A DNA stretch of 64,000 nucleotides from Bacteroidales bacterium (GCA_017519885.1 JAFWRO010000035.1:31427-95426); one strand, 5' to 3'; shown: positions 735-55,891, numbered from the stretch's first letter. The notes: generated by a model not told the origin, from the letters alone. Numbers and translations are program-made.

Positions 735-1110
735 AGCACTCTGTCGGCCGTCACGATGCTTTATCCTGTAGCAGATAGCACGCTGACGGCCGTCATGATG
801 CTTGCTCCCGCAGGATAGAGCACGCTGACGCGCGACACGATGCTTTATCACGCAGCAGATAGCACTCTGACGGCTGTCGTGATGCTTCATCCGTCAGCGG
901 AAGTACTCTGTCGGCCGTCACGATGCTTCATCACGCAGCAGATAGCACTCTGTCGCCCGTCATGATGCTCCATCACGCAGCAGACAGCACTCTGTCGGCC
1001 GACACGATGCTTCGTCCGACTGCAGAAGCACTCTGACACCCGTCACGATGCTTCATCGCGGAGCAGATAGCACTCTGTCGGCCGTCATGGTGCTCTATCA
1101 CGCAGCAGAT
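735..1110. repeat. Tandem array 1: about 9 units of 41-42 bp, consensus AGCACTCTGTCGGCCGTCACGATGCTTCATCACGCAGCAGAT
   Basis: Direct reading. GGCC or degenerate cores start at 746, 788, 830, 872, 913, 955, 997, 1038 and 1080. The array lies between convergent gene ends. Confidence 0.9.
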
Positions 1111-2087: not shown

Positions 2088-2153
2088 ATGGACAATACAC
2101 GAATCTTGCTTAACAGCAAATTATACTGGACAGCTAATAATTTAATCGAATGA
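2088..2153 (+). CDS. Candidate 21-aa mini-ORF MDNTRILLNSKLYWTANNLIE
   Basis: It has an ATG start, and its TGA overlaps the ATG of the next gene (ATGA at 2150-2153). It is too short for the ORF track. An overlapping alternative 14-aa ORF sits at 2069-2113. There is no other support. Confidence 0.2.
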   Translation: MDNTRILLNSKLYWTANNLIE

Positions 2154-2668
2154 ATAAAAGCCTAAAGTGCTTGCTACCTATGGGCATATTGGGAGTTATC
2201 TTGCATACAACCATATATTTTACATTTTGTCAGAGCAACCGCACACAAGGTATAGGAATTGCCGTTATTTCTTTATTGTTGTTTACAACAACTTGCTTAT
2301 CTTATTTGATTAAGGCAAAAGATATCTTGTTGTTCGATAGCATTAAGACTCTTTATGTTATATTATTCAGTATGTTATCCTATACATTCTTATTTAATGC
2401 ATGGTGTATGATAATCTCCGAAGATAGTATATGGACAATTTCTCTATTACAAAGCATCCTATATCCCATCATATTGTCAGGGTTCATTGGGAAAGCTGCA
2501 AGTAAGAAGAGCTTCAAGGATTGTTCTGCCCTGATGTTTATTTTCGCAATCGCGAGTTGTAGCTTTAGATTTGATCCCAATAATCTAAATATACTTGCTA
2601 TTATCTCATATATTATTTGCATCGTCATCCCATCTATATTCGATTGGGGCCATAGTAAATATATTTGA
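2150..2668 (+). CDS. Polytopic membrane protein, 172 aa, no recognisable family
   Basis: There are five to six hydrophobic segments, the sequence is AT-rich, and it is first in an operon-like arrangement. Confidence 0.6.
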   Translation: MNKSLKCLLPMGILGVILHTTIYFTFCQSNRTQGIGIAVISLLLFTTTCLSYLIKAKDILLFDSIKTLYVILFSMLSYTFLFNAWCMIISEDSIWTISLLQSILYPIILSGFIGKAASKKSFKDCSALMFIFAIASCSFRFDPNNLNILAIISYIICIVIPSIFDWGHSKYI

Positions 2669-2835
2669 CTCAAATCAAGCAAGTGCATAATTTGATGGAT
2701 ATTAAAGACAATTATGGAAAGAATGTACCCTATGTCTCCAATCGGGTTAAGACAAAGGTATCGTCCCCGTAGTTCCTTTGATTCATCGACTTTTGCACTT
2801 GCCAAAGTCGATGAAATTATAAGTTTATATCCTAA

Positions 2836-3471
2836 ATGTTTAATAATATCGAATCAAACTATACAATCAGCCGATTGCAGACATCGGAGCTGCATGAACT
2901 TATTCATTTCGTTGTTGAGCAGAATTATTCTCATCATTCGCCCAAAACTGACAAAGGCACTATAGAAGAAGAAACATTGAGTCTGGTTGATGAAGAGCGA
3001 ATGATTTGCAGTGATAATTCACTTACTTACGTGGCACGGAGCCGATTGGGACAGATAATTGGCAGCATCCGCTCATGCCGTTGGGATAGAAAAGCTACGT
3101 TGCCTATGCTGAAAATCTTCAACATTAACCCAGCGGAAATAATTGAACCTTCTGAAGACGTTCAGTTTTGGCATGTCGGGCGATTTGCAGTAGATTCATG
3201 TTGCGGTATTTCCCCAATCATTCTATTCAAGCAATTGATGCATTTCGCCATCATCCCAATCGTAGAGGCAGGTAATGCCATTATGCTTGCCGAAGTGGAC
3301 AACCATCTGATGCGAGTCGTTAACCACCTGGGCATTAAAACTCATCCGTTGGGAAATTCCATCGTATATTTAGGCTCACTCACGACCCCTGTTTATTCAT
3401 TGGCAAGCGACCTGCATGATTATTACGACAGATATAAAACTTCATTTGCTGAACAAAAACTTTCAAAATAA
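2836..3471 (+). CDS. GNAT-superfamily, LuxI / N-acyl-amino-acid-synthase-like protein, 211 aa (tentative)
   Basis: The core ...VQFWHVGRFAVDS... resembles the WELSRFAI/V strand of autoinducer or N-acyl amino acid synthases. A TAA lies immediately upstream in frame. Confidence 0.5.
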   Translation: MFNNIESNYTISRLQTSELHELIHFVVEQNYSHHSPKTDKGTIEEETLSLVDEERMICSDNSLTYVARSRLGQIIGSIRSCRWDRKATLPMLKIFNINPAEIIEPSEDVQFWHVGRFAVDSCCGISPIILFKQLMHFAIIPIVEAGNAIMLAEVDNHLMRVVNHLGIKTHPLGNSIVYLGSLTTPVYSLASDLHDYYDRYKTSFAEQKLSK

Positions 3472-4223
3472 TGAAAGAAAGATACAGTAGAAACAGGCTG
3501 TATGTCCTGCCTGAGGAGCAGGACATCATCAGCCAAAAGCGCATCCTGTTGGGAGGTGCCGGCATAGGGAGCATCATTGCCGAATGTGCCATCCGCTTCG
3601 GCTTTGAGAAAATGACCATTGTCGATGGGGACGTGGTGGAGGAGAGCAATCTCAACCGCCAGAACTACTGCCAGTCTGACATCGGCAAATATAAGGCCGA
3701 AACCTTGGCAAAACGGCTTTTGGCAATCAATCCTCATGCACAAATTGCGTATCTTAACGAGATGATTACCCATGATAATCTGGTCGGCCTCATCGAAGGA
3801 CACGACATTGCCATCAATGCATTGGACTTCAATAGCGACATTCCATTTGCGCTCGACGAGGAATGCAGAAAGAGAGACATTCCAGTGCTGCATCCTTACA
3901 ATTTCGGATGGGCTGGATTTCTCACAATCGTCAGCCCGCATGGCGAACCGATAACAGTTTTGTCGAACAATCCATCAGGATTCGAACTGAAGATGGCAAA
4001 CTACGTCACCCAATATTGCGCATTCTGGCAGAATCCCAAGAATTGGCTTCAGAACATCATCGAACGATATGGAAAAGAAGTCGGGAATATGCCACCTCCA
4101 CAGCTGTCTGTCGGCTCATGGATTGCTGCAGGATATTGCGTGAATGCAATGTATCGGCTTTCGACCTCGAAAGAAGTGCATTTCTTCCCTAACTTCTATC
4201 TGTCAGCATCCGTGAACGAATAG
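3471..4223 (+). CDS. ThiF/MoeB/HesA-family E1-like adenylyltransferase, 250 aa
   Basis: It has the Rossmann loop LLGGAGIGS, the hallmark VDGDVVEESNLNRQ, and INALDF. Its start overlaps the previous stop by 1 nt (TAATG). Confidence 0.85.
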   Translation: MKERYSRNRLYVLPEEQDIISQKRILLGGAGIGSIIAECAIRFGFEKMTIVDGDVVEESNLNRQNYCQSDIGKYKAETLAKRLLAINPHAQIAYLNEMITHDNLVGLIEGHDIAINALDFNSDIPFALDEECRKRDIPVLHPYNFGWAGFLTIVSPHGEPITVLSNNPSGFELKMANYVTQYCAFWQNPKNWLQNIIERYGKEVGNMPPPQLSVGSWIAAGYCVNAMYRLSTSKEVHFFPNFYLSASVNE

Positions 4224-4225
4224 TG

Positions 4226-4984
4226 CTAAATCAGCCTGTAATTCGAGGCGAAAGAGAGCGCTTCGGTGATGTTCTTGACTCCAACTTTTTCGAACAGACG
4301 CCGCTTGTAGAATTTCACCGTATCGACCGACTTGAAGATACGATTGGCTATCTCCTCCATCTTCAGCCCTTGGGCCGAAAGGAGGAGAATGGCCTTTTCC
4401 TCTTCGCTCAGTGACACGCGCTCCCCTTGATGCCATCGGTGATCGTCCAACGAGTAGTGCCAGAAGATGTTCGTATTGTTCTTACTCACCACAATTTGCC
4501 CAGGCTTGCCCTGCGCGGAATACGAAACGACACATACAGCCAACCAGACCCTACCATCCGTGGCGAGCATGAGCGGAGTCAGCTGGTGGTTGATGAGACG
4601 CTTCTGCCTCTCGCTCAGCAGATGGAAGTCGTAGGAGATGCTGTAATCCAGTCGCTCCTCCTTCGGTATCTCATTGAAGAAGCGGAATCCCGCAGTATTG
4701 ATCTCCACCAGCATGTCGAGTTCATCGGCCGGGACATGCTGCATGTAGAAACCATAACCCATCTCCAACACCTCCTCACGGGTATGTCCGCACAGGAAAA
4801 GCGGATTGTCCGAAACGTAGAGGAAACCCTGCTTGAAATAGTCGATGATATATACGCTCTGGTAGATGGTTTGCGCAAGGGCCTCTGCAGTCCTTATCAA
4901 TGGTTCCACCTGGCTATAGTCCAAGCCCTCCGCCTCGCCAACGGCATTCTCCGGAATGAAAAAATGGGATACCTTTACCTCCAT
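4226..4984 (-). CDS. PAS-like sensor + LuxR/GerE-type HTH transcriptional regulator
   Basis: The C-terminus is LSEEEKAILLLSAQGLKMEEIANRIFKSVDTVKFYKRRLFEKVGVKN. I place the start at the ATG (MEVKV...), because the ORF-track TTG start at 5023 falls inside the -7 box. Confidence 0.85.
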   Translation of the reverse strand: MEVKVSHFFIPENAVGEAEGLDYSQVEPLIRTAEALAQTIYQSVYIIDYFKQGFLYVSDNPLFLCGHTREEVLEMGYGFYMQHVPADELDMLVEINTAGFRFFNEIPKEERLDYSISYDFHLLSERQKRLINHQLTPLMLATDGRVWLAVCVVSYSAQGKPGQIVVSKNNTNIFWHYSLDDHRWHQGERVSLSEEEKAILLLSAQGLKMEEIANRIFKSVDTVKFYKRRLFEKVGVKNITEALSFASNYRLI

Positions 4985-5020
4985 AAAATAAAATCCTGAT
5001 GAATTATAAAAAATGTTGTG

Positions 5021-5028
5021 CAAAGATA
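5021..5028 (-). promoter_or_regulatory. -7 box TATCTTTG (minus strand) for the LuxR-type regulator
   Basis: Plus-strand caaagata lies 37 nt upstream of the ATG at 4984. Confidence 0.5.
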
Positions 5029-5163
5029 TGGTTTTCCTCTGTTTTTGACAACTTTTCTTCTATTTATCTGGATATTATTTTTATTTTCTGTATTCTAATG
5101 ACATTCTTAGATGGCATTCCGATGACAAGATTCTATTATCATTTTCGTGGCATAACCAATCTT

Positions 5164-5600
5164 GGCCAAAACTGGTTATTCTTCGACAGAAGTATGGCCT
5201 TTCTTGGCCAAGATTGGTTATTCTTCGTTCGCTGCATACCCTTTCTTGGCCAAGATTAGTTATGCTGCGGTTGGATAGAGCACTCTGTCGGCCGTCGGAG
5301 TGCTTGCTCCGATTGAGGCATGACCTTTTTCGGCCAAGATTGGTTATTCTCCGTTCGCTGCATACTCTTTTTCGGCCAAGATTGGTTATTCTCCGTTCGC
5401 TGCATACCCTTTCTTGGCCAAGATTGGTTATTCTTCGTTCGCAGCATACCCTTTTTCGGCCAAGATTGGTTATTCTTCGTTCGCAGCATACCCTTTCTTG
5501 GCCAGGATTGGTTATTCTTCGTTCGCAGCATACCCTTTCTTGGCCAGGATTGGTCATGCCGCGATCGAATAAAGCACTCTGTCGAACAACAGAGTGCTTT
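5164..5600. repeat. Tandem array 2: exact 42-bp period, unit GGCCAAGATTGGTTATTCTTCGTTCGCWGCATACCCTTTCTT, closed by a perfect hairpin
   Basis: GGCC starts at 5164, 5206, 5248, 5290, 5332, 5374, 5416, 5458, 5500 and 5542. The terminal hairpin AAAGCACTCTGT-CGAACA-ACAGAGTGCTTT is at 5571-5600. Confidence 0.9.
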
Positions 5601-5615
5601 ATATGATGGTGAATA

Positions 5616-5771
5616 TCAATCCGTAGGATTCCACTGCATGAACCAGCGCTTCTGGTCCTCGTAGGGCATGTTGAAATAACGTGCCTCCTTGTCGAGAGCG
5701 CGCATCTGCTGCATCTCTTCGTTGCTCAGCTCGAAATCGAAGACCTCGATGTTCTCCTGGATGTGAGCGGG
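5616..5771 (-). pseudogene. Aldo/keto reductase C-terminal remnant (about 52 codons, no N-terminal body)
   Basis: The minus-strand translation is PAHIQENIEVFDFELSNEEMQQMRALDKEARYFNMPYEDQKRWFMQWNPTD*. ENI-VFDFELS-EEM is the typical AKR C-terminal motif. The remnant abuts the stop of the next gene. Confidence 0.55.
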
Positions 5772-5772
5772 A

Positions 5773-6237
5773 TTACATATCTTCGACAGTTGTGAACATG
5801 AAATTGGACTCGCGGTGCTTGATGAGCCACTTGCCGTCCTGCTTCACATAGGTGTCGTGATAACGTACGCCGCTCTGGTTTCGCTTGCCATTGCCGATGA
5901 GTGTCACGAAGCAGTAGGAGATGCCTGTGGCCGTATCGCCGTCAATCTCCACCGTCTGCTGACCGTTCAGGTGATAGACCACATCGAACTGAGCGAGATA
6001 ACTGGCGAATGCATTACCAATCTGCTCCTTTCCCTTCATCACCGAGACGTACTCGCCTACCTTTGAGTGCACTTCGGCATCGTCGGTGAACAAGTCCATC
6101 TGCGACTTGACATCCTTCACGTCAGCGAGGTTAGAAAACGTATCCACGAGTCTCTTGAGTGCCAGCTGGTCTTCGGTCTGTGCACTTGCCCATGTCGTGG
6201 TCATCAGGGCCAACAAGATAAACAGAATCTTTTTCAT
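5773..6237 (-). CDS. Secreted SnoaL-like / NTF2-fold protein, 154 aa
   Basis: It has a signal peptide (MKKILFILLALMTTTWASAQ). Its length and the pattern ...FTDDAEV...G.E.I...F...H...I.DG..A..... fit the nuclear transport factor 2-like fold. Confidence 0.65.
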   Translation of the reverse strand: MKKILFILLALMTTTWASAQTEDQLALKRLVDTFSNLADVKDVKSQMDLFTDDAEVHSKVGEYVSVMKGKEQIGNAFASYLAQFDVVYHLNGQQTVEIDGDTATGISYCFVTLIGNGKRNQSGVRYHDTYVKQDGKWLIKHRESNFMFTTVEDM

Positions 6238-7148: not shown

Positions 7149-7655
7149 TTATAAAGATTCGATTTCCTCTATTGTCAGACCAGTAATCTCAGCAATATCT
7201 TCAACTGCAAAGCCCTTGGCCTTCATCTTGCGGGCATTTTCAATATTTGTTTTGAGCACAGCATCGGCCGTATCCTCAAAGTCATCGGCCTTGGACACCC
7301 ATTCGTTCCAATCGGTCTTGGCAAGATAAAGCTCCACCTGTTTCTTCAGCACTGGGATGTCGTTGATGGCTGTGTTATAAAGTTCTCTGTCGTCGATGGT
7401 AGCATAATCATGAACCAGAATGTGACGCATACCTTGTACAAATTTCCATGGTATAGCAGGATGTGCATTCTTGAAAGCTTTAGTCAGCATATAGGCCGCC
7501 TCACCCACTACCTCGATATTTTTCATAACAGAGAAATAGGTGCGCTTATCTTTGACGAGAGATTCGAAAGTGTATCCCTCAATAAGCATCATAACATTCG
7601 CGGAATATTCGACGATATCTTCTAACCGCCCTTTATCCCTCGCTCTTTCTCTCAT
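7149..7655 (-). CDS. hepT: HepT-like (DUF86) RNase toxin of a type VII TA pair, with a C-terminal extension
   Basis: The RX4HXY motif is present as RHILVHDY. It overlaps the MNT gene by 23 nt. The extra tail is ...ENARKMKAKGFAVEDIAEITGLTIEEIESL. Confidence 0.85.
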   Translation of the reverse strand: MRERARDKGRLEDIVEYSANVMMLIEGYTFESLVKDKRTYFSVMKNIEVVGEAAYMLTKAFKNAHPAIPWKFVQGMRHILVHDYATIDDRELYNTAINDIPVLKKQVELYLAKTDWNEWVSKADDFEDTADAVLKTNIENARKMKAKGFAVEDIAEITGLTIEEIESL

Positions 7656-7941
7656 AAATCAAAATTTTATCTCGGTTAGCACTTGCTGCTGCGTACGGGC
7701 GAAGCGTTCCTTCGACAACCAAATCTACTTCGCGACCTAACAGCTCCTGCAAGTCCATCAACATGCCTCCATGAGTGAAGAGCGTGAAAGGCTTGCCAGA
7801 ATAATCGGGAACAAAAAGGATATCAACGTCACTCTTCGGTGTCTCCTCGCCACGGGCAAAGGATCCAAACAGCCATGCCTTCAGGACAGGTTGTGTCTTG
7901 AAGTAGTCGGCTATAGTCTGTTGTATCAGTTGGTTGCTCAT
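7633..7941 (-). CDS. mntA: MNT-type nucleotidyltransferase antitoxin
   Basis: It carries the GSxxRGxxxxxSDxD motif as LFGSFARGEETPKSDVDIL, is 102 aa long, and lies upstream of and overlapping hepT. Confidence 0.9.
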   Translation of the reverse strand: MSNQLIQQTIADYFKTQPVLKAWLFGSFARGEETPKSDVDILFVPDYSGKPFTLFTHGGMLMDLQELLGREVDLVVEGTLRPYAAASANRDKILIYERKSEG

Positions 7942-8048: not shown

Positions 8049-8858
8049 TTATTTCTGCCGGTATTCCGAGGGCGATTTGCCCAAAACCCGCTTCGTGTAA
8101 CGCGAGAAATGCGAGATATTCTCGAAGTTCATGAGGTCCGAGACCTCGCCGAGCGTCTTGGTGGTGTCGTTGAGCAACGACACCAGTTCGAACGCCGCAT
8201 AGAACTGAATCCATTGCGAAGCAGGCAATCCCGTCATCGTGCGGCACACCTGCGAGAGATACTTCGGCGTGATGCAAAGACGGTCGGCATACCACGCCAC
8301 CTCGCGCTCGGTCAGCACGTTTTGCTGCACCAGGGTGAGGAACCGCAGGAAGAGGCTGGCCGTAAAGTCCGACGTCTCCATCTGTGACAGGCCGTGCTGG
8401 CACACCGTCCAGAGGTCGAAGAGGAAGATCTGCATCACACGCCCCAGCACTTCGCGCTTGAACGTCGATTCGGGTTGGGCCAATCGGCTGCGAAAGAGAG
8501 AGAAGTCGGCTTCCATCAGCCTCAATCCCTCGTCATCGAGGTGGATGGAGGGATTGATGCGGATGAAGATGAAGCCCTTCGAAGCCCAGATCATCTCGGG
8601 ATTGTATTGCTGGAGGAACGTGGGCGAAGCCAACAGGACTTCGCCCTCAAAATCGTCGGAATAGGTCACATCCTGAATTGAATTGGACATCTGCCAGATG
8701 GCCAAGTCGCCCTTTCGCGAACAGAAACCGTTCTTGCCATCGGAGAAGGTCATCGTGCCCTGCTTCACCAGGACATGTACATGATAGTCGGCGATGAAGT
8801 CGGAAGGCATCCGTCCATCGGCCGTGCTGATAAGATTGCATCCGTAAAGTAATTCCAT
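8049..8858 (-). CDS. AraC-family transcriptional regulator (cupin-like N-terminus + HTH)
   Basis: The C-terminus is ...LSQVCRTMTGLPASQWI....FENISHFSRYTKRVLGKSPSEYRQK. Confidence 0.9.
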   Translation of the reverse strand: MELLYGCNLISTADGRMPSDFIADYHVHVLVKQGTMTFSDGKNGFCSRKGDLAIWQMSNSIQDVTYSDDFEGEVLLASPTFLQQYNPEMIWASKGFIFIRINPSIHLDDEGLRLMEADFSLFRSRLAQPESTFKREVLGRVMQIFLFDLWTVCQHGLSQMETSDFTASLFLRFLTLVQQNVLTEREVAWYADRLCITPKYLSQVCRTMTGLPASQWIQFYAAFELVSLLNDTTKTLGEVSDLMNFENISHFSRYTKRVLGKSPSEYRQK

Positions 8859-8871
8859 GATCGTTGATGTT

Positions 8872-10134
8872 TTATTTGACCGAAGCGCAACGTGCCTCGT
8901 AGAAGCTGCGGAAGTCGCTCCAGCGGTAATAGGGATAATTTGTGGTGGGCACAGGCAGACTGGCTTCGCAACCGTTGAGCAGGCATTTCACGAGCACATC
9001 GTCCGCCCCACCTTTGCCACGATAGAAGATGAGCTGGATGTTCGAGGCCTTGCAGGTGTTCCAGTTCTGGTAGCAGTTCTTCACCTCGTAGGGATCCTCG
9101 GGATCGCGGTCGGCGCCATTGATGCCCATCAGGACGGTGAGGGGACCGATGCAGGTGTCGTGTCCGAAACGCAGGTCAGCCACGCGCTTCACGCGGCCCG
9201 AGATGACAGCGTCGGCCTTGGCGATGATGTCCTCGAGGATGGGGATCATCTCGTATTGCGGACCGAAGACCCACGAATAGGAGCCGAGGTTGGAAGCCTC
9301 CCATTCGCCGACCAACTCCTCGTCGCTGACGATGCCGTCCATCATACCCTCGTGACCGATGCTGGGCAGCGAGGTGTAGAGGTTGAGGAGTTCGCTGCCG
9401 ATGCGACCAGGATTGCCCTTGAGGCCCTCGGTGCTGGTGAAGACGCGGGCAGTGATGTCCTGACGCAAGGTGCTCTCGTGCTTGAACTGGTCGCGATGCT
9501 GTTCGAAGCGCGGACGCACTCTCGGGAACTCACGTCGGGCAGGATTCTGCCTGTCGGTGGGCACCACGCCATCGAGCGTGAAGCGCGATGACTGTTCGCG
9601 AATCTCGAGCTTCGGGTTGCACTGGACAAGCTCCTGGCAGAAGGCCGACATACTGATCACGCAACGTCCCGACAACGAGGAGATGGCGAGCACGTCACCA
9701 CCTTTTTTGAACACCTCGGGGAAACGGTTGTACATGGTGCGTGCAATGCCCTGGTGCTGCTGCCAGCCCACTTCGGTGAGTTCGCTCACACCCGTCATCA
9801 GTTCGTCCTTGACGGCCATGAAGCTGTCGCAGAACTTCTCGCCGCGAGGCGTGAGCTGATGCTGCTGGCGTGCCGTGGTGAGCAGGGTGTCGAGGTAATG
9901 GTAGAGATGGTCGCTCCAATAGTAGCGCGAGCCATGACGTGCGTAATGGCTGATGTAGAATGCCTTGTAGCCCTTGGGCGCCTTGGTGAGTCGGACGTCC
10001 TCCTGCCTGTAGGGATAGTCGTTGCCATACGCCTTGCGCGGATTGGCCTTGAGCTGGTCGAGGGCGGAAACACCCTGCGCCTCCATCGTGACGGCAAGGA
10101 GACTGAAAAGGAAAAGAATGAAGAACTTTTTCAT
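8872..10134 (-). CDS. Secreted histidine phosphatase family protein, branch 2 (histidine acid phosphatase / MINPP-like)
   Basis: It has a signal peptide, the catalytic motif RHGSRY, and a downstream FGHDT (HD motif). Confidence 0.8.
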   Translation of the reverse strand: MKKFFILFLFSLLAVTMEAQGVSALDQLKANPRKAYGNDYPYRQEDVRLTKAPKGYKAFYISHYARHGSRYYWSDHLYHYLDTLLTTARQQHQLTPRGEKFCDSFMAVKDELMTGVSELTEVGWQQHQGIARTMYNRFPEVFKKGGDVLAISSLSGRCVISMSAFCQELVQCNPKLEIREQSSRFTLDGVVPTDRQNPARREFPRVRPRFEQHRDQFKHESTLRQDITARVFTSTEGLKGNPGRIGSELLNLYTSLPSIGHEGMMDGIVSDEELVGEWEASNLGSYSWVFGPQYEMIPILEDIIAKADAVISGRVKRVADLRFGHDTCIGPLTVLMGINGADRDPEDPYEVKNCYQNWNTCKASNIQLIFYRGKGGADDVLVKCLLNGCEASLPVPTTNYPYYRWSDFRSFYEARCASVK

Positions 10135-10182: not shown

Positions 10183-11277
10183 TCACCCCACGATATACTT
10201 GCTGCCCGGAAGCAGCGAGATGAGCCAGGTTACCAGCGCACTGCATGCGTATGTGAGCATCGCGATGACCGGGATGGCAAGCCATACGGGAAGCGATGGA
10301 TTAGCCACGTCGCCAGCGATGATCCACTCCGAAATCGGGATGAGGAAGAAGATGTGCATCAGGTACATGCCGAAGGTCAGCTTGCTGATGCGCGTGATCC
10401 AGGCGGGAGCCTCCTGGATGCAGGAGAAGAGCAGGAACGCGCCGAACGTGGTGATGAGGACGTTGAGCGTACAGAACTCCCACGACCATTCCGCCATCGG
10501 GGTATCCAGCATCTGTCCGGGAACGCCTTTCCACCAGAAGCTCCATGCCGTGAACGCAGCACCGAAGAGGAAACACAGGCTACCCACCTTGATGCGCTTC
10601 GAGCGTGACCAGTCGAGGTGCACACGGATGTAATGCGCCAACACCAGGTAGCCCAGATAGCCCGAGCAGTACCACAGTGCGGAGAAGTTGTTCCAGAAGC
10701 ATTCGCCCCACAGTTCAGGCGACACGAAGCGATGGAGCCAGGGGATGAGCGTCGAGAAGGCAAAGATGCCGAGGAACGTCAGTTCGTCCTTCGCGCTGGC
10801 CTTTTCGAGCCAGGGCGACACCACGGGGATGATGAGGTAGATGCTGATGAGCGGATACATAAACCACAGATGGCCTGCGATGGGCGGGAAGTTGAAAGGC
10901 ACCATCTTCAGGTCGTGCAAGGCCTGTTCCTGCGTTGTGCCTCCCCAAGCCAAAGGCAGAACGGCATAGAGCAGCAGGAAGCACACAAAGGGTGGCAGGA
11001 TGCGCAGGAAGCGCCGGCGATAGAACTGCCCCATGGTCATACCTTCGCGCATCGGGACGAGCAGGAAGGCTGACACGATCATGAACAGCGGCACGGAGAT
11101 ACGCCCGAAGAAACCATCATAGATGGATACCCACAGGCGGTTGCTCTCGTTGGCCAGCATCGTATAGGCATCGTGGTCAACGTAGAAACATTCACTCGCG
11201 TGGACGACCATCACCAGAAGGCAGGCCACCACGCGAATGTAATCGACAAAGGCAATACGGGGAGAAGGAGTTTTCAA
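10183..11277 (-). CDS. Acyltransferase-3 family membrane O-acyltransferase
   Basis: It shows RIAFVDYIRVVACLLVMVVHASE and about 10 TM segments. The only possible start is a TTG that sits inside the heptamer repeat. Confidence 0.85.
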   Translation of the reverse strand: MKTPSPRIAFVDYIRVVACLLVMVVHASECFYVDHDAYTMLANESNRLWVSIYDGFFGRISVPLFMIVSAFLLVPMREGMTMGQFYRRRFLRILPPFVCFLLLYAVLPLAWGGTTQEQALHDLKMVPFNFPPIAGHLWFMYPLISIYLIIPVVSPWLEKASAKDELTFLGIFAFSTLIPWLHRFVSPELWGECFWNNFSALWYCSGYLGYLVLAHYIRVHLDWSRSKRIKVGSLCFLFGAAFTAWSFWWKGVPGQMLDTPMAEWSWEFCTLNVLITTFGAFLLFSCIQEAPAWITRISKLTFGMYLMHIFFLIPISEWIIAGDVANPSLPVWLAIPVIAMLTYACSALVTWLISLLPGSKYIVG

Positions 11278-11330
11278 TTAACAATTAACAATTAATAATT
11301 AACAATTATCAATTAACAATTAACAATTAA
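11275..11330. repeat. 8 x 7-bp tandem repeat CAATTAA (complement TTAATTG)
   Basis: caattaa caattaa caattaa taattaa caattat caattaa caattaa caattaa. It contains the upstream gene's TAA stop (11320-11322) and the downstream gene's TTG start (11275-11277). Confidence 0.9.
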
Positions 11331-12494: not shown

Positions 12495-12539
12495 AGTTAT
12501 CTGAGTTATCCGAGTACTCCGATTATTCCGAGTACTCCG
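12495..12539. repeat. 5 x 9-bp tandem repeat (AGTAYTCCG family)
   Basis: agttatctg agttatccg agtactccg attattccg agtactccg. The same family occurs at 46079-46130. Confidence 0.85.
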
Positions 12540-13515: not shown

Positions 13516-15759
13516 TTATAAATGTATCAAAGCGCTTGGAAGGCCGTCACACCTGGCACCCACGACGCAGGGACCTGTAAGGCTGCGAAGACGAATGGTG
13601 GCTCGACCATTGGCAGCCTGGATGCGACGGGAGCCTGTGGTGGTGCCCTGGTTGACGAGCAATTCGCCATCGCCGGCAATCGAGAACTCAATCCAATCGC
13701 TGCTGTCGAGACAGCGGATGCCATTGGCGTCGTAGAGCTGGGCCTCGATCAGGTCGGGGGCAATCCGCGTGAGTCGCAGTTCGGCAGGCTTTCCCCAATG
13801 TTCGGTCTGATATTCGAAGGTAATCTCGTCGGACAAATCCTTGGCGACGGCCTTGATGGTGTTGGTGCCTCGTTGCAGGACGACGTTCCAATGGAAGCCC
13901 TGGGCGGGATAGTCCTCCATGTTACGCTTTCGTTTGCCTACCGACTGGCCATTGACGAAGAGCTCTACCTCGGGCTGATTGGAATAGACGAGGACCTCAC
14001 GGGGTTCGCCTTCCTCGCCCCAACGCACAGGCCAGGAATGTCCGTAGATGTGAAGCATCGGCTGGCTTGCCCAATAACTTTGGAACACGTAATAACTCTC
14101 CTTGGGCGTGCCATCGCGCTGCATGATGCCCTTCTGGTTGACGTAAGGAATAGGATTCGAGGGACGCAGCGGGGTGCAGAAATCCTTGAAGGTCCAGAAT
14201 GCCGATCCCGTCAGGTTGGGCATCCTGGCCTGTTCCTTCAGATGCCAATCGAAGAGACGGACAATGTAGCTCTCCGACCAGTCGCCTTTCTTGTCACCGA
14301 CCTCGATGTCGAAGCCCGACTCGGCATGTCGGCCCGCATGACTGTCGCCTCCCCATTCGGCATGCAGGAAATGGGGGAAGCGTGCGATGGCAGCCTCCTC
14401 CATCTCGCGATAATCGGTGAAGCGTCGGCTGTACCAACCTGCCCAAATCGACGGCGAATAGATATCGACGATGTCGGCACAGAAGTCGCAGCGACGAATG
14501 ACCGTCTTTCGCAGGGGGTCGAGCCGATGGGCGTGATCGTTGAGCGACGTCATCAGAGAACGGATACCCAGCGTATCGATGATGGTAGAGAAATCGCCTG
14601 GCCAGTCATTTTCGTTGCCGAGGCCCCAAAGGATGATGCTCGGATGATGACGATGCTGAGTGATCATGTTTTCGAGCATTCGATGAGCCTGCTGCTGATA
14701 CTCTTCTCCCCCTACTCCACCACGGCACCAGGGAATCTCTTCCCACACGAGGATGCCGAGCGAGTCGCAGAGGTCGAGCACGAGGTCGCGCTGCTGGTAA
14801 TGGCCCAAACGGATGAAGTTGGCACCCATGTCCTTGATCTGCTTCATCTCCTGTCGGATCTGCTCATCGGTCATAGCGGCACCCACTCCGGCATGGTCCT
14901 CATGGCGATGTGTACCCTTCAAGAGCAGACGGCGACCATTGAGGAAGAAGGGCCCATGCTCGCGGAACACATAACTGCGGAAGCCAAAGCGACGCTCGAT
15001 GACCTGTTGGCCAAAAGTGATACGAAGCGTATAGAGCGATGGCGAATCCACATCCCACAACGTAGGTTTCCTGATGCGGATAGGCAGACCGATGCCCCCT
15101 TCATAGACCGTCTTTCCATCGGGAGACACGATGCTGCAACTGACGTCCCCGATATCAGATGGCGAAGTTTTCACACTTACCTTGTCGCCCTCCACATCGA
15201 TGCGGACATCGCTGATGTAGCGCTCGGGCAGATACACCAGATGAACGGGGCGATAGAGTCCTCCATAGAGGCAGAAGTCGCTCATGTCGGAAGGAATCAT
15301 CTCCACATCACGACTGTTGTCGCAACGCACGGCAATGGGATGCCGGCCATTGCCGACTTCGGTGATATCGACCGTCCAACGGTCGTAACCGCCGACGTGC
15401 GAACCCATCAGACGGCCATCGACATAGACCTGCGTCTTCTGGCCTGCACCTTCGAACTCCAGCAAGGTATGTCCCCCAGCATAGGGATTTGCCACCTCGA
15501 TGGTGGTGCGATACCAGGCAGCACCCTGATAGTAGTTCACGTCGGGATCGACACCATCTTCGGCATTATAGCAATGGGGAAGCGTGACGTCCTGCCACAA
15601 CGGGACGCTTTCGGGTTTCCCTTCCTTCACGGGACGCTCCACCTCCCAGACGTTTGCCATGTCGGTGCGAACGAATTGCCATTGGGACAAATTGACCTGT
15701 GCACCAGCTGTCACAGCCAGCACACAGGTCGAAAAACAAAGCACACACAATCGTTTCAA
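13516..15759 (-). CDS. Glycoside hydrolase family 2 (beta-galactosidase/glucuronidase-like)
   Basis: Motifs are NFIRLGHYQQ, WGLGNENDW (acid/base) and HAEWGGDSH (nucleophile region). It has a signal peptide and a TTG start at 15757-15759. Confidence 0.9.
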   Translation of the reverse strand: MKRLCVLCFSTCVLAVTAGAQVNLSQWQFVRTDMANVWEVERPVKEGKPESVPLWQDVTLPHCYNAEDGVDPDVNYYQGAAWYRTTIEVANPYAGGHTLLEFEGAGQKTQVYVDGRLMGSHVGGYDRWTVDITEVGNGRHPIAVRCDNSRDVEMIPSDMSDFCLYGGLYRPVHLVYLPERYISDVRIDVEGDKVSVKTSPSDIGDVSCSIVSPDGKTVYEGGIGLPIRIRKPTLWDVDSPSLYTLRITFGQQVIERRFGFRSYVFREHGPFFLNGRRLLLKGTHRHEDHAGVGAAMTDEQIRQEMKQIKDMGANFIRLGHYQQRDLVLDLCDSLGILVWEEIPWCRGGVGGEEYQQQAHRMLENMITQHRHHPSIILWGLGNENDWPGDFSTIIDTLGIRSLMTSLNDHAHRLDPLRKTVIRRCDFCADIVDIYSPSIWAGWYSRRFTDYREMEEAAIARFPHFLHAEWGGDSHAGRHAESGFDIEVGDKKGDWSESYIVRLFDWHLKEQARMPNLTGSAFWTFKDFCTPLRPSNPIPYVNQKGIMQRDGTPKESYYVFQSYWASQPMLHIYGHSWPVRWGEEGEPREVLVYSNQPEVELFVNGQSVGKRKRNMEDYPAQGFHWNVVLQRGTNTIKAVAKDLSDEITFEYQTEHWGKPAELRLTRIAPDLIEAQLYDANGIRCLDSSDWIEFSIAGDGELLVNQGTTTGSRRIQAANGRATIRLRSLTGPCVVGARCDGLPSALIHL

Positions 15760-15873
15760 GGTTAAGAGGGGTTTGAAGGGTTCGAGGGGTTCGAGGGGTT
15801 CGAGAGGTTTGAGAGGTTAAGAGGGGCTAACAACCTTTCGAACCTTTCTTAACCTTTCGAACTTTTCAGAACC
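15760..15873. repeat. Intercistronic G-arm/C-arm tandem-repeat hairpin (9-bp units GGGTTCGAG / CCTTTCGAA)
   Basis: About 7 G-rich 9-mers (15760-15826) are followed by a short loop and about 4 complementary C-rich 9-mers (15834-15873). It fills the gap from one gene's stop to the next gene's start. Confidence 0.85.
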
Positions 15874-18860: not shown

Positions 18861-18916
18861 GGAGTAAAAGGGGAGTAAAAAAGGAGTAAAAGGGGAGTAA
18901 AAGGGTAGTAAAAAGG
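18861..18916. repeat. 5 x 10-12-bp tandem repeat GGAGTAAAAG(G)
   Basis: ggagtaaaag gggagtaaaaaa ggagtaaaag gggagtaaaag ggtagtaaaaag, in the SusD-lipoprotein gap. Confidence 0.85.
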
Positions 18917-18958: not shown

Positions 18959-18986
18959 AATTGTTAATTGTTAATTATTAATTGTT
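18959..18986. repeat. 4 x 7-bp tandem repeat AATTGTT
   Basis: aattgtt aattgtt aattatt aattgtt. This is the same heptamer family as 11275-11330, 27041-27097 and 58670-58697. Confidence 0.8.
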
Positions 18987-18997
18987 ATTTGAACAGA

Positions 18998-46072: not shown

Positions 46073-46078
46073 TTTCCG

Positions 46079-46130
46079 AGTATTCCGAGTGCTCCGAGTA
46101 TTCTGAGTATTCCGATTACTCCGATAATCC
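46079..46130. repeat. About 6 x 9-bp tandem repeat AGTAYTCCG
   Basis: agtattccg agtgctccg agtattctg agtattccg attactccg ataatcc. It fills the stop-to-start gap. Confidence 0.85.
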
Positions 46131-47892: not shown

Positions 47893-47937
47893 CTATAGTC
47901 ACTATAGCTAATATAGTCACTATAATTACTATAGTCA
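47893..47937. repeat. 5 x 9-bp tandem repeat CTATAGTCA
   Basis: ctatagtca ctatagcta atatagtca ctataatta ctatagtca. It fills the stop-to-start gap. Confidence 0.85.
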
Positions 47938-49995: not shown

Positions 49996-51543
49996 ATGAA
50001 AATCTCTACCCCAATATTCCTTGCAGCAGCTTTCTTGGCAAGCGTTTGCCAAATTTCGTTTGCTGAAACCCTCACAGTGACCACCACCGAGGCCGGTACG
50101 CTCGCCAACCTTATCGACGCCACAGCCAAAGCCACGACCACTTCATTGAAGGTCAATGGTCCGCTCAACGGCGCCGACATCCTCTTCCTGCGCCAGATGA
50201 TGACAGCAGGTCTCAAGTCGAACGAGACATACGAAGGAGTCCTCGCCGAACTCGACCTCTCCGACGCCACTATTGTAGCCAGCGATGACCACTACTACGA
50301 AACCAGCAAGGAAGGCTACAATACGACCGACAACGAAGTGGGCGACTACATGTTCAACAAGTGTGTCACCCTCACCAGCATCAAGTTGCCTCGCACAGCC
50401 ACCCGCATCGGACAAAATGCTTTCCTCCGACTCGAAAACCTCACCTCCATCGTGCTGCCTGAGGCACTCGTAACCATCGACAAGAGTGCATTCGCTTACA
50501 GCAATGCATTCACCGAACTGGCCTTCCCTGCCACCCTCGACAGTATCATGACCTACGCCTTCCAAAGTGCCACAGCATTGAAGACAATCAGTTTTGCCGA
50601 AGGTGCCTCCCTGCGATATGTGAGCGAAAGTGCATTCAACTACTGCACCGCGCTCGAAAGCGCCGAACTGCCCGCTACGGTGGAATACATCGGAGCCAGC
50701 GCATTTAGCGGTGATACAACGCTCACCAGTTTCACCTTCCCTGCCTCATTGAAGGAAGTGGGCAACAACGCCTTCCAAGGATGCTCCCATCTCTCACAGG
50801 TTTCTGAGATACCTGCAGGCGTGACCAGCTTCGGCTATGGTGTGTTCCAAAGTGCTCCACTGTCCGAAATCAAGGTGAACTCAGCCAATACCAACTATGT
50901 GGTCGAAAACAACGTGCTCTTCAATGCTGGCAAGACCGCTCTGATATACATGCCAATGAATTGTGGCAAGACCTCATACCACGTGCCTTCCACTGTGACC
51001 GAGATCCTTAATTTCGCTTTCTATAAAGTCTCCACCCTCAAGGAACTCATTCTCAACGACGGCCTTACCACCATCCAAAACACCGCATTCTCGCAGACAG
51101 GACTCGAGACTATTGTCATCCCCAGCAGCGTCACTACCATCAGCTCTTATATGCTCGAAGGTTGCCCGTCGCTCACTGGTGTGACCATCCTTGGCACCAT
51201 CAGCGACGTTCCAGCCAATGCCTTCCGCGAATCGGCCAACATGACAAGCATCGCCTTTGCCCAAGCCACTCCACCCACCTTCGTCCGCAACTCATTCTAT
51301 GGCAATCCCGAGACCATCTACGTCTATGTTCCCGCGGAATCCATCCCAGCCTACGAGACAGCAATGGCCCCGGCCAACCGCTCATCCTACATCTTCTGCG
51401 ACATCAACACTAGCGACATCCAATTGCCAAAAGCAGAAAGCCAAATGCCGAAAGCCGACCTCTACGACCTCCTCGGACGTCCCATCCAAAGCCGCGCCAA
51501 AGGTATCATCATCGATGCTGGTCGTCCCGTAATCAATAAATAA
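49996..51543 (+). CDS. BspA-like leucine-rich-repeat surface protein with T9SS C-terminal sorting domain
   Basis: It has repeated ...I.LP..V..IG..AF..C..L.. units and the tail ADLYDLLGRPIQSRAKGIIIDAGRPVINK. Confidence 0.85.
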   Translation: MKISTPIFLAAAFLASVCQISFAETLTVTTTEAGTLANLIDATAKATTTSLKVNGPLNGADILFLRQMMTAGLKSNETYEGVLAELDLSDATIVASDDHYYETSKEGYNTTDNEVGDYMFNKCVTLTSIKLPRTATRIGQNAFLRLENLTSIVLPEALVTIDKSAFAYSNAFTELAFPATLDSIMTYAFQSATALKTISFAEGASLRYVSESAFNYCTALESAELPATVEYIGASAFSGDTTLTSFTFPASLKEVGNNAFQGCSHLSQVSEIPAGVTSFGYGVFQSAPLSEIKVNSANTNYVVENNVLFNAGKTALIYMPMNCGKTSYHVPSTVTEILNFAFYKVSTLKELILNDGLTTIQNTAFSQTGLETIVIPSSVTTISSYMLEGCPSLTGVTILGTISDVPANAFRESANMTSIAFAQATPPTFVRNSFYGNPETIYVYVPAESIPAYETAMAPANRSSYIFCDINTSDIQLPKAESQMPKADLYDLLGRPIQSRAKGIIIDAGRPVINK

Positions 51544-51587: not shown

Positions 51588-51998
51588 AGCAAGCATTCTG
51601 ACGGCCGACAGGATGCTTGCTTCTATATGATAAGGTACTCTGTCGGCCGTCTGAGTGTTTCCGCAAAAGGAGGAAGCATTTTGTCGGCCGTCAGGATACT
51701 ATTTCCCGCAAGAGAATGTACTCTGTCGGCCGTCAGAGTGTTATTTCCCGTAGGAGCAAGTACTCTGTCGGCCGTCTGAGTGTTATTTCTCGTAGGAGCA
51801 AGTACTCTGTCGGCCGTCACGATGCTATTTCTCGCAGGAACAAGTACTCTGTCGGCCGTCACGATGCTATTTCCCATAGATGCAAGTACTCTGTCGGCCG
51901 TCAGAGTGTTATTTCTCGCAGGAGCAAGTACTCTGTCGGCCGTCAGAGTACTGTCGCAAAAAGAGGAAGCATCCTGTCGGCCGTCAGAATGCTTCCTC
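51588..51998. repeat. Tandem array 3: about 10 units of 41-42 bp, consensus GTACTCTGTCGGCCGTCAGAGTGTTATTTCTCGTAGGAGCAA
   Basis: GGCC starts at 51603, 51645, 51686, 51728, 51770, 51812, 51854, 51896, 51938 and 51979. The first and last units are strong hairpins. It is the same family as array 1. Confidence 0.9.
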
Positions 51999-52020
51999 TA
52001 AAACATAATTAGTTTTTTCG

Positions 52021-55856: not shown

Positions 55857-55891
55857 TGGGGTTAAGAGGGGTTAAGAAAAGTTCGAAGGGT
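55857..55891. repeat. About 10-bp tandem repeat GGGGTTAAGA / GGGTTCAAAG (same family as 15760-15826)
   Basis: ggggttaaga ggggttaaga aaagttcgaa gggtt.... The stretch ggttaagaggggtt is identical to 15760-15773. Confidence 0.8.

What the first reader, a model, noticed from the sequence alone, without database searches (positions are those of the whole stretch)
5164..5600. Array 2: GGCC recurs exactly every 42 bp ten times, through a switch of unit type; 42 bp is four helical turns
The first G of GGCC falls at 5164, 5206, 5248, 5290, 5332, 5374, 5416, 5458, 5500 and 5542. The closing perfect hairpin AAAGCACTCTGT-CGAACA-ACAGAGTGCTTT is centred one further 42-bp step on, at 5584, with GAAC instead of GGCC. 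Most units are GGCCAAGATTGGTTATTCTTCGTTCGCWGCATACCCTTTCTT, and several carry the 12-bp perfect palindrome TCTTGGCCAAGA. The unit at 5290 is instead an array-1-type hairpin (AGCACTCTGTCGGCCGTCGGAGTGCT), and three units have hybrid cores (TTCGGCCAAGA). The phase never slips. Two different unit sequences therefore share a period and a GGCC-centred dyad. That implies selection on spacing rather than on sequence alone. At 10.5 bp per turn, a 42-bp period puts every dyad on the same face of the helix. Known centromere-like sites have this design; F-plasmid sopC is twelve 43-bp repeats, each with an inverted repeat bound by SopB. A protein-binding or nucleoid-organising array is one hypothesis. Amplified terminator hairpins acting on RNA is the alternative. 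The array sits about 130 bp upstream of the LuxR-type gene promoter and just downstream of the aldo/keto reductase (AKR) remnant.
Basis: partly seen in the sequence, partly recalled or inferred. Interest (0 to 1): 0.65.

Follow-up and report, generated by a model that had tools for sequence, protein, structure and literature searches.

The report
Dispersed ten-unit 42-bp palindrome arrays
The 42-bp GGCC periodicity is real, but it is one ordinary copy of an apparently undescribed family of intergenic repeat arrays in rumen Bacteroidales, each made of about ten 42-bp palindrome-plus-linker modules, and in this family spacing and unit number are conserved much better than sequence.

Summary
Confirmed: GGCC starts at 5164 and recurs at exact 42-bp steps ten times. 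An A-type unit (5279-5304) and the closing hairpin (5573-5598) are in the same phase.

This is not a local oddity. The window holds three such arrays, and a covariance model finds units nowhere else. The same family occurs in rumen Bacteroidales/Prevotellaceae MAGs and metagenomes.

- **Module:** a 26-bp imperfect palindrome plus a 16-bp weakly dyad-symmetric linker. At least three palindrome types (A, B, C) share one frame.
- **Spacing:** of 831 centre-to-centre steps, 93% are 42 bp and 6% are 41 bp.
- **Unit number:** of 40 distinct complete loci, 25 have 10 units and 37 have 9-11.
- **Stability:** copy number did not vary within the species.
- **Turnover:** orthologous loci in relatives carry a different unit type with the same unit number (A/B at array 1, A/C at array 3).
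- **Position:** arrays sit a median 63 bp after stop codons, beside unrelated genes.
- **Strand signal:** I found none (G.U equals A.C; orientation is random relative to transcription).

Best reading: a REP/BIME-like structural repeat family acting at the DNA level through geometry. It is not a sopC-type centromere. Function is inferred, not shown. I found no description of it in Rfam or the searchable literature.

The parts
5153..5598 (+). Array 2: eleven 42-bp modules. The 26-bp palindromes lie at 5153-5178, 5195-5220, 5237-5262, 5279-5304, 5321-5346, 5363-5388, 5405-5430, 5447-5472, 5489-5514, 5531-5556 and 5573-5598, each followed by a 16-nt linker. Arm types read Pp Qp Qp Aa Qp Qp Qp Qp Qp Qp Aa. 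A linker-like half-unit lies at 5137-5152.
   Evidence: All ten centre-to-centre steps are 42 bp.
5279..5304 (+). The single internal A-type palindrome (AGCACTCTGTCGG|CCGTCGGAGTGCT) inside a B-type array. It is in phase with its neighbours.
   Evidence: A units interspersed among B units are normal for the family.
5572..5601 (.). Terminal cap: a perfect 12-bp-stem hairpin, an A-type unit with core CGAACA. It starts 15 nt after the stop codon (5616-5618) of the AKR remnant on the minus strand and is probably that gene's terminator. Relative L220 has GGCC at this position.
   Evidence: It is retained in L120 with only one truncated B unit after it.
735..1110 (+). Array 1: nine A-type modules (mostly AGCACTCTGTCGG|CCGTCACGATGCT) with steps of 42 and 41 bp. 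It lies between convergent genes (DUF4143 ATPase ending at 687; 165-aa gene at 1157-1654 on the minus strand).
   Evidence: The ortholog L156 has nine B-type units instead.
51592..51993 (+). Array 3: ten A-type modules with strong capping hairpins at both ends. It lies between convergent genes (BspA-type LRR gene 49996-51543 on the plus strand; GH2 gene 52021-55617 on the minus strand).
   Evidence: L113 (92.6% identical) has the same ten units with no indels. L256 has ten C-type units at the LRR 3' end.
5619..5762 (-). Remnant of the C-terminal 48 residues of an aldo-keto reductase (stop at 5616-5618), downstream of the SnoaL-like gene at 5773-6237 on the minus strand.
   Evidence: all 60 hits shown are AKR-type reductases, best E 6e-4, aligning to residues about 270-300 of 324; no Pfam hit. 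SnoaL_4.
4226..4984 (-). LuxR/GerE-family regulator gene. Its start codon is 168 bp from the array edge. It is the first gene of a 4.7-kb segment (with ThiF 3471-4223, FeeM-like 2836-3471 and a 172-aa gene 2150-2668) that is absent in relative L120.

Best explanation
What it is (high confidence). Array 2 is an ordinary member of a lineage-specific family of dispersed intergenic repeat arrays in rumen Bacteroidales/Prevotellaceae.
- Each array is a head-to-tail string of about ten 42-bp modules.
- A module is a 26-bp imperfect palindrome (core usually GGCC; also GCGC, GTAC or ACGT-type) plus a 16-bp linker with the weakly dyad-symmetric skeleton TnCTnC-N4-GnAGnA. Dyads therefore fall every 21 bp.
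- At least three palindrome types (A, B, C) are same-length homologous modules with a shared linker.
- The phase never slips at a type switch because types are exchanged in register, by conversion or replacement between arrays. Slippage is rare. This is a family trait and not special to this locus.

How it works (inferred, low confidence). It behaves most like REP/BIME clusters: structure-prone, dyad-symmetric DNA parked just after stop codons. No strand-specific signal exists, and geometry (period, unit number, total length of about 420 bp) is conserved while sequence turns over. I therefore infer a DNA-level, geometry-dependent role: a protein-loaded or cruciform-prone spacer or insulator at the ends of transcription units. 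Any RNA hairpin effect on 3' ends would be secondary. It is not a partition centromere.
For: Family and anatomy:
- Three period-42 arrays lie in the window. A covariance model built from 148 diverse units finds 56 hits, all inside those three arrays.
- The same arrays occur in 8 rumen MAGs and in 86 arrays from 120 metagenome loci.

Spacing and number:
- Centres detected independently give 772 steps of 42 bp, 50 of 41 bp and 6 of 43 bp, out of 831.
- Among 40 distinct complete loci, 25 have 10 units, 9 have 9 and 3 have 11. One locus each has 2, 13 and 14.

Dyad maintained across types:
- The major stem is 77.6% paired, and all 11 pairs show double changes. Overall pairing is 70.9%, against 36-44% when the partner is slid and 60.3% when shuffled.

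In-register turnover:
- Array 3 and L113 have 10 units each, no indels, and differ by swaps of 3'-arm variants.
- Array 1 (9 A units) matches L156 (9 B units) between flanking genes about 90-95% identical.
- The LRR 3' end has 10 A units in the window and 10 C units in L256.
- One AraC-type gene is followed by 10-11-unit arrays whose A/B order differs.

Stability: intergenic gaps are identical in every place shown from two 24-contig look-ups and in L119 and L121.

Position:
- 41 of 62 gene ends facing an array are 3' ends (p = 0.015), at a median 63 bp. The 5' ends lie at a median 203 bp.
- The neighbouring genes are unrelated to one another.

No strand signal:
- G.U versus A.C is 164:174 on the sense strand. 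Oriented by B polarity it is 41:41 for A units and 165:145 for B units.
- Polarity relative to transcription is 8 sense to 5 antisense.

Conserved asymmetry: Qq units number 3 observed against 36 expected, so maximal hairpin stability is not what is kept.
Against: - No protein partner, transcript or topological data exist. The DNA-level role rests on negative evidence (absence of strand asymmetry) and on analogy with BIME-2.
- Mismatch symmetry could simply mean that mismatches are young and neutral.
- Arrays running at 41 bp show the helical phase is not strictly required.
- Position just after stop codons means the arrays are probably transcribed, so an RNA role is not excluded.
- Unit number near 10 could be a frozen ancestral state of a mobile element rather than a selected length.
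- My gene calls are a crude codon-usage caller.
Confidence: 0.4

Rival explanations
1. Selfish or neutral mobile minisatellite. The whole ~420-bp array is a MITE/REPIN-like non-autonomous element, possibly mobilised by a Bacteroidetes RAYT-type Y1 transposase that recognises hairpins. It lands in harmless sites after stop codons and is homogenised by conversion. It has no host function, and ten units is a frozen ancestral state.
For: - Arrays have a MITE-like defined size.
- They lie in safe intergenic sites beside unrelated genes, in either orientation.
- Presence varies at variable-region borders: L118 has no array, L120 has a truncated one and L037 has 2 units.
- The same site holds different types in relatives.
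- Left-end units tend to read Pp Qp.
- RAYT subclass 2.6 is mostly Bacteroidetes and is flanked by 'atypical secondary structures' with copies elsewhere in the genome (PMC6006769).
- BrickBuilt is a precedent for a Bacteroidales MITE with an internal minisatellite (PMC4596501).
Against: - No conserved leader, tail or terminal inverted repeats occur outside the units.
- Positional homology between non-orthologous arrays is essentially absent (diagonal 0.48 against off-diagonal 0.47).
- No solo units occur in the window.
- No RAYT motif was found in 1.79 Mb of held sequence, though this is a weak test.
- Arrays persist at orthologous loci across 82-93% protein or DNA identity without decay or copy-number drift. 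That is unexpected for neutral DNA under bacterial deletion bias.
Confidence: 0.25
2. RNA-level element. Arrays are transcribed as 3' UTRs and fold into a stack of about ten stem-loops. These terminate or insulate transcription bidirectionally and protect mRNA 3' ends from exonucleases, as REP stem-loops do.
For: - Arrays start a median 63 bp after stop codons, and 30 of 36 loci have at least one 3'-facing gene.
- Convergent gene pairs are over-represented (10 of 24 against 6 expected).
- Terminal caps look like real terminators (5572-5601; 51962-51999 followed by TTTTTG on the minus strand).
- The stems show compensatory changes.
- The whole array folds far better than shuffles (z = -14 and -12).
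Against: - There is no G.U over A.C excess on the sense strand (164:174).
- There is no orientation bias (8:5).
- Internal units are weak hairpins, about -6.5 kcal/mol, and lack U-tracts. The scan finds 0 terminator-like sites in 4900-5800.
- Mismatched Qp/Pq and a/a' units are conserved, while perfectly pairing Qq units are avoided.
- Orthologous units switch between paired and mismatched 3' arms without compensation.
- An RNA role gives no reason for a fixed 42-nt period or ten units.
- Array 2 is antisense to both of its neighbours.
Confidence: 0.2
3. Centromere-like partition site (sopC/parS type): an array of identical binding sites for one sequence-specific ParB/SopB-like protein.
For: The form resembles F sopC, which by my own recollection is twelve 43-bp repeats each with an inverted repeat. 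Here there are about ten 42-bp repeats each with a dyad.
Against: - There are three arrays in 64 kb and dozens of chromosomal loci.
- No ParA/ParB-type genes are adjacent.
- The palindrome sequence is interchangeable between A, B and C, even at one locus.
- No match to the two array patterns scanned was found in IMG/VR viral contigs.
Confidence: 0.03
4. Coding repeat, or small-RNA array of the type III antitoxin (ToxI) or CRISPR kind.
For: - 42 bp equals 14 codons.
- Gene callers predict ORFs through arrays 2 and 3 (158 aa and 84 aa).
- Tandem ~40-nt repeats recall ToxI-type antitoxins.
Against: - Array 1 has no ORF of 60 aa or more.
- 41-bp steps break any reading frame.
- Arrays lie between convergent genes that have their own stop codons.
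- No ToxN/AbiQ or cas neighbours are present.
- There are no unique spacers.
- Rfam finds nothing.
Confidence: 0.02

Closest known systems
REP/BIME clusters of Enterobacteria and Pseudomonas, especially BIME-2 (alternating Y/Z2 palindromic units; gyrase-binding). Comparison rests on my own knowledge plus PMC3733652.
   Same: - Short imperfect palindromes of 20-40 bp.
- Extragenic, concentrated after gene 3' ends and between convergent genes.
- Many dispersed copies.
- Two unit types alternating within clusters.
- Conserved asymmetry within the palindrome.
- Lineage-specific sequence.
   Different: - Units here are strictly head-to-tail, not alternately inverted.
- The period is fixed at 42 bp.
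- Units occur only in arrays of about ten, with no singletons or REPIN doublets in the window.
- There is no terminal GTAG or CGTC tag.
- No cognate RAYT has been identified.
- Gyrase or IHF binding is untested.
BrickBuilt MITE with internal minisatellite, Porphyromonas gingivalis (PMC4596501)
   Same: - A Bacteroidales host.
- A dispersed, strictly intergenic tandem repeat without spacers.
- About 0.4% of the genome.
- Annotation pipelines call spurious ORFs through it.
   Different: - BrickBuilt has 23-nt units.
- Its copy number runs from 1 to 22.8.
- It has conserved leader and tail segments with terminal inverted repeats.
- The family here has 42-bp palindromic modules, 9-11 units and no leader or tail.
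F-plasmid sopC centromere
   Same: About a dozen tandem ~43-bp units, each containing an inverted repeat.
   Different: - sopC is a single plasmid locus next to sopAB, with one conserved binding sequence.
- Here there are many chromosomal loci, no partition genes and interchangeable palindromes.
MIRU/VNTR minisatellites of mycobacteria (my own knowledge)
   Same: Intergenic tandem repeats of 40-100 bp dispersed around the chromosome.
   Different: - MIRU copy number varies between strains.
- Here copy number was invariant in all conspecific contigs examined.
- Units here are palindromic.
ToxI-type (type III) antitoxin RNA repeats (my own knowledge)
   Same: Tandem repeats of about 36-45 nt ending at a hairpin.
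   Different: - There is no adjacent toxin endoribonuclease gene.
- There are dozens of loci.
- Orientation is not tied to a downstream gene.

Membership tests
REP/BIME | Imperfect palindromic unit of 20-40 bp able to form a stem-loop | tested here: met
   The palindromes are 26 bp. The major stem is 77.6% paired with compensatory changes at all 11 pairs.
REP/BIME | Extragenic, preferentially at 3' ends of transcription units | tested here: met
   41 of 62 facing gene ends are 3' ends, at a median 63 bp. Contexts are 10 convergent, 10 tandem and 4 divergent.
REP/BIME | High copy number dispersed over the chromosome | tested here: inconclusive
   There are 3 arrays in 64 kb and several contigs per MAG. 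No complete genome was available for a count.
REP/BIME | Units occur as singletons and inverted pairs (REPINs); adjacent units in BIMEs alternate in orientation | tested here: not met
   All 56 model hits in the window lie inside the three arrays. Units are head-to-tail with consistent polarity.
REP/BIME | Conserved GTAG or CGTC tetranucleotide at one end of the palindrome (PMC3733652) | tested here: not met
   Arms begin AGCA, TAAC, TGAC or TGTC. CGTC occurs only next to the core in some A units.
REP/BIME | Cognate single-copy RAYT (TnpA-REP) gene flanked by the repeats | tested here: inconclusive
   No HuH...Y[IV]xxNP motif ORF was found in 1.79 Mb of held sequence. A single-copy gene could easily be missed, and whole genomes were not searchable.
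sopC/parS-type centromere | One locus (or a few) per replicon, adjacent to parAB/sopAB | tested here: not met
   There are three arrays in 64 kb. The neighbours are a LuxR regulator, a SnoaL-like gene, a DUF4143 ATPase, an LRR protein, GH2 and others.
sopC/parS-type centromere | Conserved binding sequence in every unit | tested here: not met
   A, B and C palindromes are interchangeable within arrays and at orthologous loci.
BrickBuilt-type MITE with minisatellite | Conserved leader and tail with terminal inverted repeats flanking the tandem repeat | tested here: not met
   BLAST of 150-bp flanks from 33 arrays gave only orthology-type hits.
BrickBuilt-type MITE with minisatellite | Widely variable repeat number between copies (1 to about 23) | tested here: not met
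   37 of 40 loci have 9-11 units.
VNTR/MIRU minisatellite | Copy number polymorphic between strains | tested here: not met
   Gaps are identical (478 bp and 470 bp) in all places shown from two 24-contig look-ups. L119 and L121 have the same array 2.
Type III toxin-antitoxin (ToxI-like repeats) | Repeat array immediately upstream of a ToxN/AbiQ-family endoribonuclease gene | tested here: not met
   The downstream gene of array 2 is a GerE/LuxR regulator. Other arrays flank unrelated genes.
CRISPR | Repeats separated by unique spacers; cas genes | tested here: not met
   The 16-nt linkers are themselves repeated within an array. No cas-type neighbours were seen.
Any Rfam RNA family | Match at gathering score | tested here: not met
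   There are 0 matches in the whole window. Only sub-threshold chance hits occur in 4900-5800.

The most novel reading that the evidence does not exclude
These arrays are a new class of bacterial chromosomal architecture element. They would be phase- and length-quantised platforms (about 10 x 42 bp, dyads every 21 bp) kept for geometry rather than sequence. An oligomeric or filament-forming protein, or a topoisomerase, would load on them at the ends of transcription units to insulate neighbouring units or buffer supercoiling. Their sequence would be continually overwritten by inter-array conversion.
Probability: 0.2. Interest if true: 0.85.

Novelty: new variant of a known kind. Interest (0 to 1): 0.6.

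Why it matters
Dispersed palindromic repeats (REP/BIME) have been known for about 40 years, yet their function is still debated. Most of that work comes from Proteobacteria.

This family offers a cleaner natural experiment:
- Sequence is swapped between unrelated palindromes, even at the same locus.
- Period (42 bp), unit number (about 10) and position after stop codons are held constant.

If geometry is what selection sees, it points to a structural or insulator role that can be tested directly by ChIP, Hi-C or array-resizing experiments in dominant rumen Bacteroidales.

There are two practical points:
- The arrays generate spurious ORF calls (158-aa and 84-aa 'proteins').
- Three held contigs (L034, L045, L060) end inside an array.

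Tried and rejected
- **Rfam**, at gathering threshold and at E up to 10: nothing real.
- **Whole-array RNA folds**: uninformative, because palindromic tandem units pair with each other over long range.
- **Polarity from the TGTC...GTCA mismatch of A units**: unreliable, since L068 contradicts it. I replaced it with the B-arm (Q/P) asymmetry.
- **Apparent G.T excess on one strand** in some arrays (array 3 16:4, L062 24:1): it vanished family-wide, both by B polarity and by sense strand. It reflects homogenised unit variants.
- **Linker mini-hairpin**: it looked compensatory by eye (CTCC-GATT-GGAG and similar), but only 58% of cells pair and there is little covariation.
- **Whole-array positional homology**: no diagonal signal (0.48 against 0.47), though register errors weaken the test.
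- **Leader/tail search**: negative.
- **RAYT motif scan**: negative but weak.
- **Viral contigs**: no arrays.
- **The 15-mer genome scan**: it returned mostly chance hits in unrelated phyla.
- **First unit counts**: arrays counted as 6-7 units were stepping artefacts. The counts were redone.
- **Literature**: five searches, including searches for the sequence strings themselves, found no description of the family.
- **Coding hypothesis**: rejected.

Full report
**Observation**

The sequence is as described. GGCC begins at 5164 and then at nine further positions exactly 42 bp apart. One extra, out-of-phase GGCC lies at 5196. TRF reports a period-42 array at 5160-5554 with 9.4 copies and 79% matches.

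Dyad centres found independently lie at 5165/5166 and then every 42 bp up to 5585/5586. This series includes the A-type unit at 5279-5304 and the closing hairpin at 5572-5601. The hybrid cores and the TCTTGGCCAAGA palindromes are present in three units each.

The neighbours are:
- a GerE/LuxR gene at 4226-4984 on the minus strand;
- a 48-residue C-terminal remnant of an aldo-keto reductase at 5619-5762 on the minus strand;
- a SnoaL-like gene at 5773-6237 on the minus strand.

**A family, not a local oddity**

The window has three period-42 arrays: 735-1110, 5153-5598 and 51592-51993. A covariance model built from 148 diverse units was run over the whole window with filters off. It gave 56 hits, and every one lies inside these three arrays. 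Units therefore do not occur singly in the window.

A 15-mer scan of one genome per species returned mostly chance hits. It also found true arrays in eight rumen Bacteroidales/Prevotellaceae MAGs. A two-unit pattern scan of metagenome contigs gave 120 loci holding 86 arrays. No match to the two array patterns scanned turned up in IMG/VR. Rfam has nothing. Five literature searches, including searches for the sequence strings, found no description of the family.

**Anatomy**

Each 42-bp module has two parts.
- **A 26-bp imperfect palindrome.** Type A is AGCACTCTGTCGG|CCGACAGAGTGCT. Type B is TGACCAATCTTGG|CCAAGATTGGTCA, with a frequent asymmetric arm TACCCTTTCTTGG. Type C is TGTCCCCCAACGT|ACGTTGGGGGACA.
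- **A 16-nt linker.** Its skeleton, TnCTnC-N4-GnAGnA, is shared by all three types.

The dyad centres of palindrome and linker are 21 bp apart. A and B alternate with an 84-bp super-period in many arrays, and 126-bp patterns are also common. The 'switch of unit type' in array 2 is therefore a family trait. Further unit types with 41, 42 and 84-bp periods exist in a more distant relative (L258).

**Spacing and number**

Unit centres were detected independently, with no step assumption. Of 831 neighbour distances below 70 bp, 772 are 42 bp (92.9%), 50 are 41 bp and 6 are 43 bp. Whole arrays can run at 41 bp, with a 15-nt linker. Examples are L016, L034, L060 and 8 metagenome arrays.

After merging orthologous loci by flank BLAST, 40 distinct complete loci remain. 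Their unit numbers are:

| Units per array | Loci |
|---|---|
| 10 | 25 |
| 9 | 9 |
| 11 | 3 |
| 2, 13, 14 | 1 each |

This holds whatever the composition: all-A, all-B, ABAB or mixed. Short arrays would have been detectable. Very long ones might fail to assemble, but the drop from 10 to 11 to 12 units is sharp.

**Stability and turnover**

Within the species, copy number did not vary.
- The LRR-to-GH2 gap is 478 bp, and the gap between the 165-aa gene and the AAA_14 gene is 470 bp, in every place shown from two 24-contig look-ups.
- L119 (99.98% identical) and L121 (99.1%) have the same array 2.

At 92.6% identity, L113 has array 3 with the same ten units and no indels. The differences are mainly swaps of two 3'-arm variants, GTCAGAGTGTT and GTCACGATGCT. 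These change the pairing without any compensation.

At greater distance the sequence is replaced but the form is kept.
- Array 1 has nine A units. Its ortholog L156 lies between genes about 90-95% identical and has nine B units in an intergenic segment of the same length.
- The LRR 3' end carries ten A units in the window and ten C units in L256.
- L254 has a degenerate array of about ten units in which GGCC every 42-43 bp outlasts the arms.

Arrays also border variable DNA.
- L120 keeps only the cap plus one truncated B unit. It lacks the rest of the array and the 4.7-kb LuxR-ThiF segment.
- L118 has no array at that site.

**Position**

The arrays flank unrelated genes: GH2, GH28, a rhamnosidase, Asd, RecN-like, GGDEF, CotH and AraC-type regulators. 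Of 62 gene ends facing an array, 41 are 3' ends (p = 0.015), at a median distance of 63 bp. The 5' ends lie at a median 203 bp. The resolved contexts are 10 convergent, 10 tandem and 4 divergent. These figures rest on a crude codon-usage gene caller.

**DNA or RNA?**

Dyad symmetry is maintained through compensatory changes. The major stem is 77.6% paired, and all 11 pairs show double changes. Overall pairing is 70.9%, against 36-44% when the partner is slid and 60.3% when shuffled. The linker stem is weak, at 58% paired with little covariation.

I found no strand-specific signature.
- Oriented by the sense strand of the single upstream gene, G.U versus A.C is 164:174.
- Oriented by B-unit polarity, the ratio is 41:41 for A units and 165:145 for B units.
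- Array polarity relative to transcription is 8 sense to 5 antisense. Array 2 itself is antisense to both neighbours.

Several points argue against selection for RNA hairpin strength.
- Internal units are weak hairpins, about -6.5 kcal/mol, without U-tracts. The scan finds no terminator-like site in 4900-5800.
- Asymmetric Qp and Pq units are common, while perfectly pairing Qq units are nearly absent (3 observed, 36 expected, p = 2e-13).

Maximal hairpin stability is therefore not what is preserved. Only the terminal caps look like genuine terminators.

**Interpretation**

What the array is seems secure: a member of a REP/BIME-like but distinct family of decameric 42-bp module arrays. How it works is inferred.

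Three observations favour a DNA-level, geometry-dependent role at the ends of transcription units, such as a protein-loaded or cruciform-prone spacer or insulator, by analogy with gyrase-binding BIME-2:
- the lack of any strand signal;
- the conservation of period, number and length while sequence turns over;
- the conserved asymmetric units.

My rough weights are:

| Reading | Weight |
|---|---|
| DNA-level, geometry-dependent role | 0.4 |
| Selfish or neutral mobile minisatellite | 0.25 |
| RNA 3'-UTR stem-loop stack | 0.2 |
| sopC-type centromere | about 0.03 |

The centromere reading is excluded in practice by copy number, by the neighbouring genes and by sequence interchangeability. The 'same helical face' arithmetic is correct for 42 bp and for the 21-bp half-period. 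It is not strictly required, because 41-bp arrays exist.

**Limits**

- All assemblies are short-read.
- No complete genome, transcriptome or protein-binding data were available.
- The RAYT test was weak.

Noticed in passing
window 15753-15873; also 55858-55900, 46074-46124, 12495-12539, 47893-47937, 18861-18913, 11275-11330, 18959-18991: Many short tandem repeats of 7-11 bp lie in intergenic DNA. At 15753-15873, two blocks of 9-mers (GGGGTTCGA-like and AACCTTTCG-like) are inverted relative to each other and would form a long hairpin between genes. Similar 'GGAGTT/GGTTCGAAAGG' repeats occur in L033 4571-4649, in L258 6992-7338 and in L118 after the AKR remnant. This may be a second family of repeat-built hairpins in the same lineage.
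   Followed up: partly
window 2150-5600 compared with L120, L118 and L121: A 4.7-kb segment (LuxR/GerE, ThiF-like E1, FeeM-like N-acyl synthase, a 172-aa ORF and, in L121, a 347-aa ORF) is present or absent between relatives about 95% identical. In L120 the deletion junction lies inside the first B unit after the cap hairpin. Arrays thus mark borders of variable DNA.
   Followed up: partly
window 7149-7941 (-): A HepT-like RNase gene, with a nucleotidyltransferase partner annotated in L119 (a HepT/MNT toxin-antitoxin pair), is present in the window and L119 but absent at the same place in L118, L120 and L121.
   Followed up: no
window 5619-5762 (-): An orphan C-terminal fragment (48 aa) of an aldo-keto reductase lies directly after the stop codon of the SnoaL-like gene. 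It is conserved in all relatives examined. The cap hairpin of array 2 sits 15 nt after its stop codon.
   Followed up: yes
L256 7704-8123; L254 6185-6565: At the GH2/LRR locus, an 82% relative has ten C-type units. An 83% relative has a degenerate array of about ten units in which GGCC every 42-43 bp survives although the units are too diverged for TRF to detect.
   Followed up: partly
L258 8047-8246 and 8320-8533: A more distant relative (GH2 72% identical) carries arrays of period 41 and 42/84 bp with yet other unit sequences. One unit keeps the TGTCC...GGACA outer stem of type C. The 42-bp frame therefore extends beyond types A, B and C.
   Followed up: no
window 5081-5557 (-), 51617-52012 (+); L119 6681-7157; L246 3373-3627: Public gene calls place hypothetical proteins (158 aa, 84 aa) through the arrays. 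The A and B consensus units read by eye are stop-codon-poor: 5 of 6 frames are open in the B unit and 4 of 6 in the A unit. These ORFs are almost certainly artefacts.
   Followed up: partly
L016 1-118 with 214-569; L086 455-814 with 912-1444; L215 159-566 with 660-1064; L219 8438-8758 with 8851-9049: Two arrays of different type (A or A/B next to C) often lie side by side, about 100 bp apart, in the same intergenic region. Their relative orientation is not fixed.
   Followed up: no
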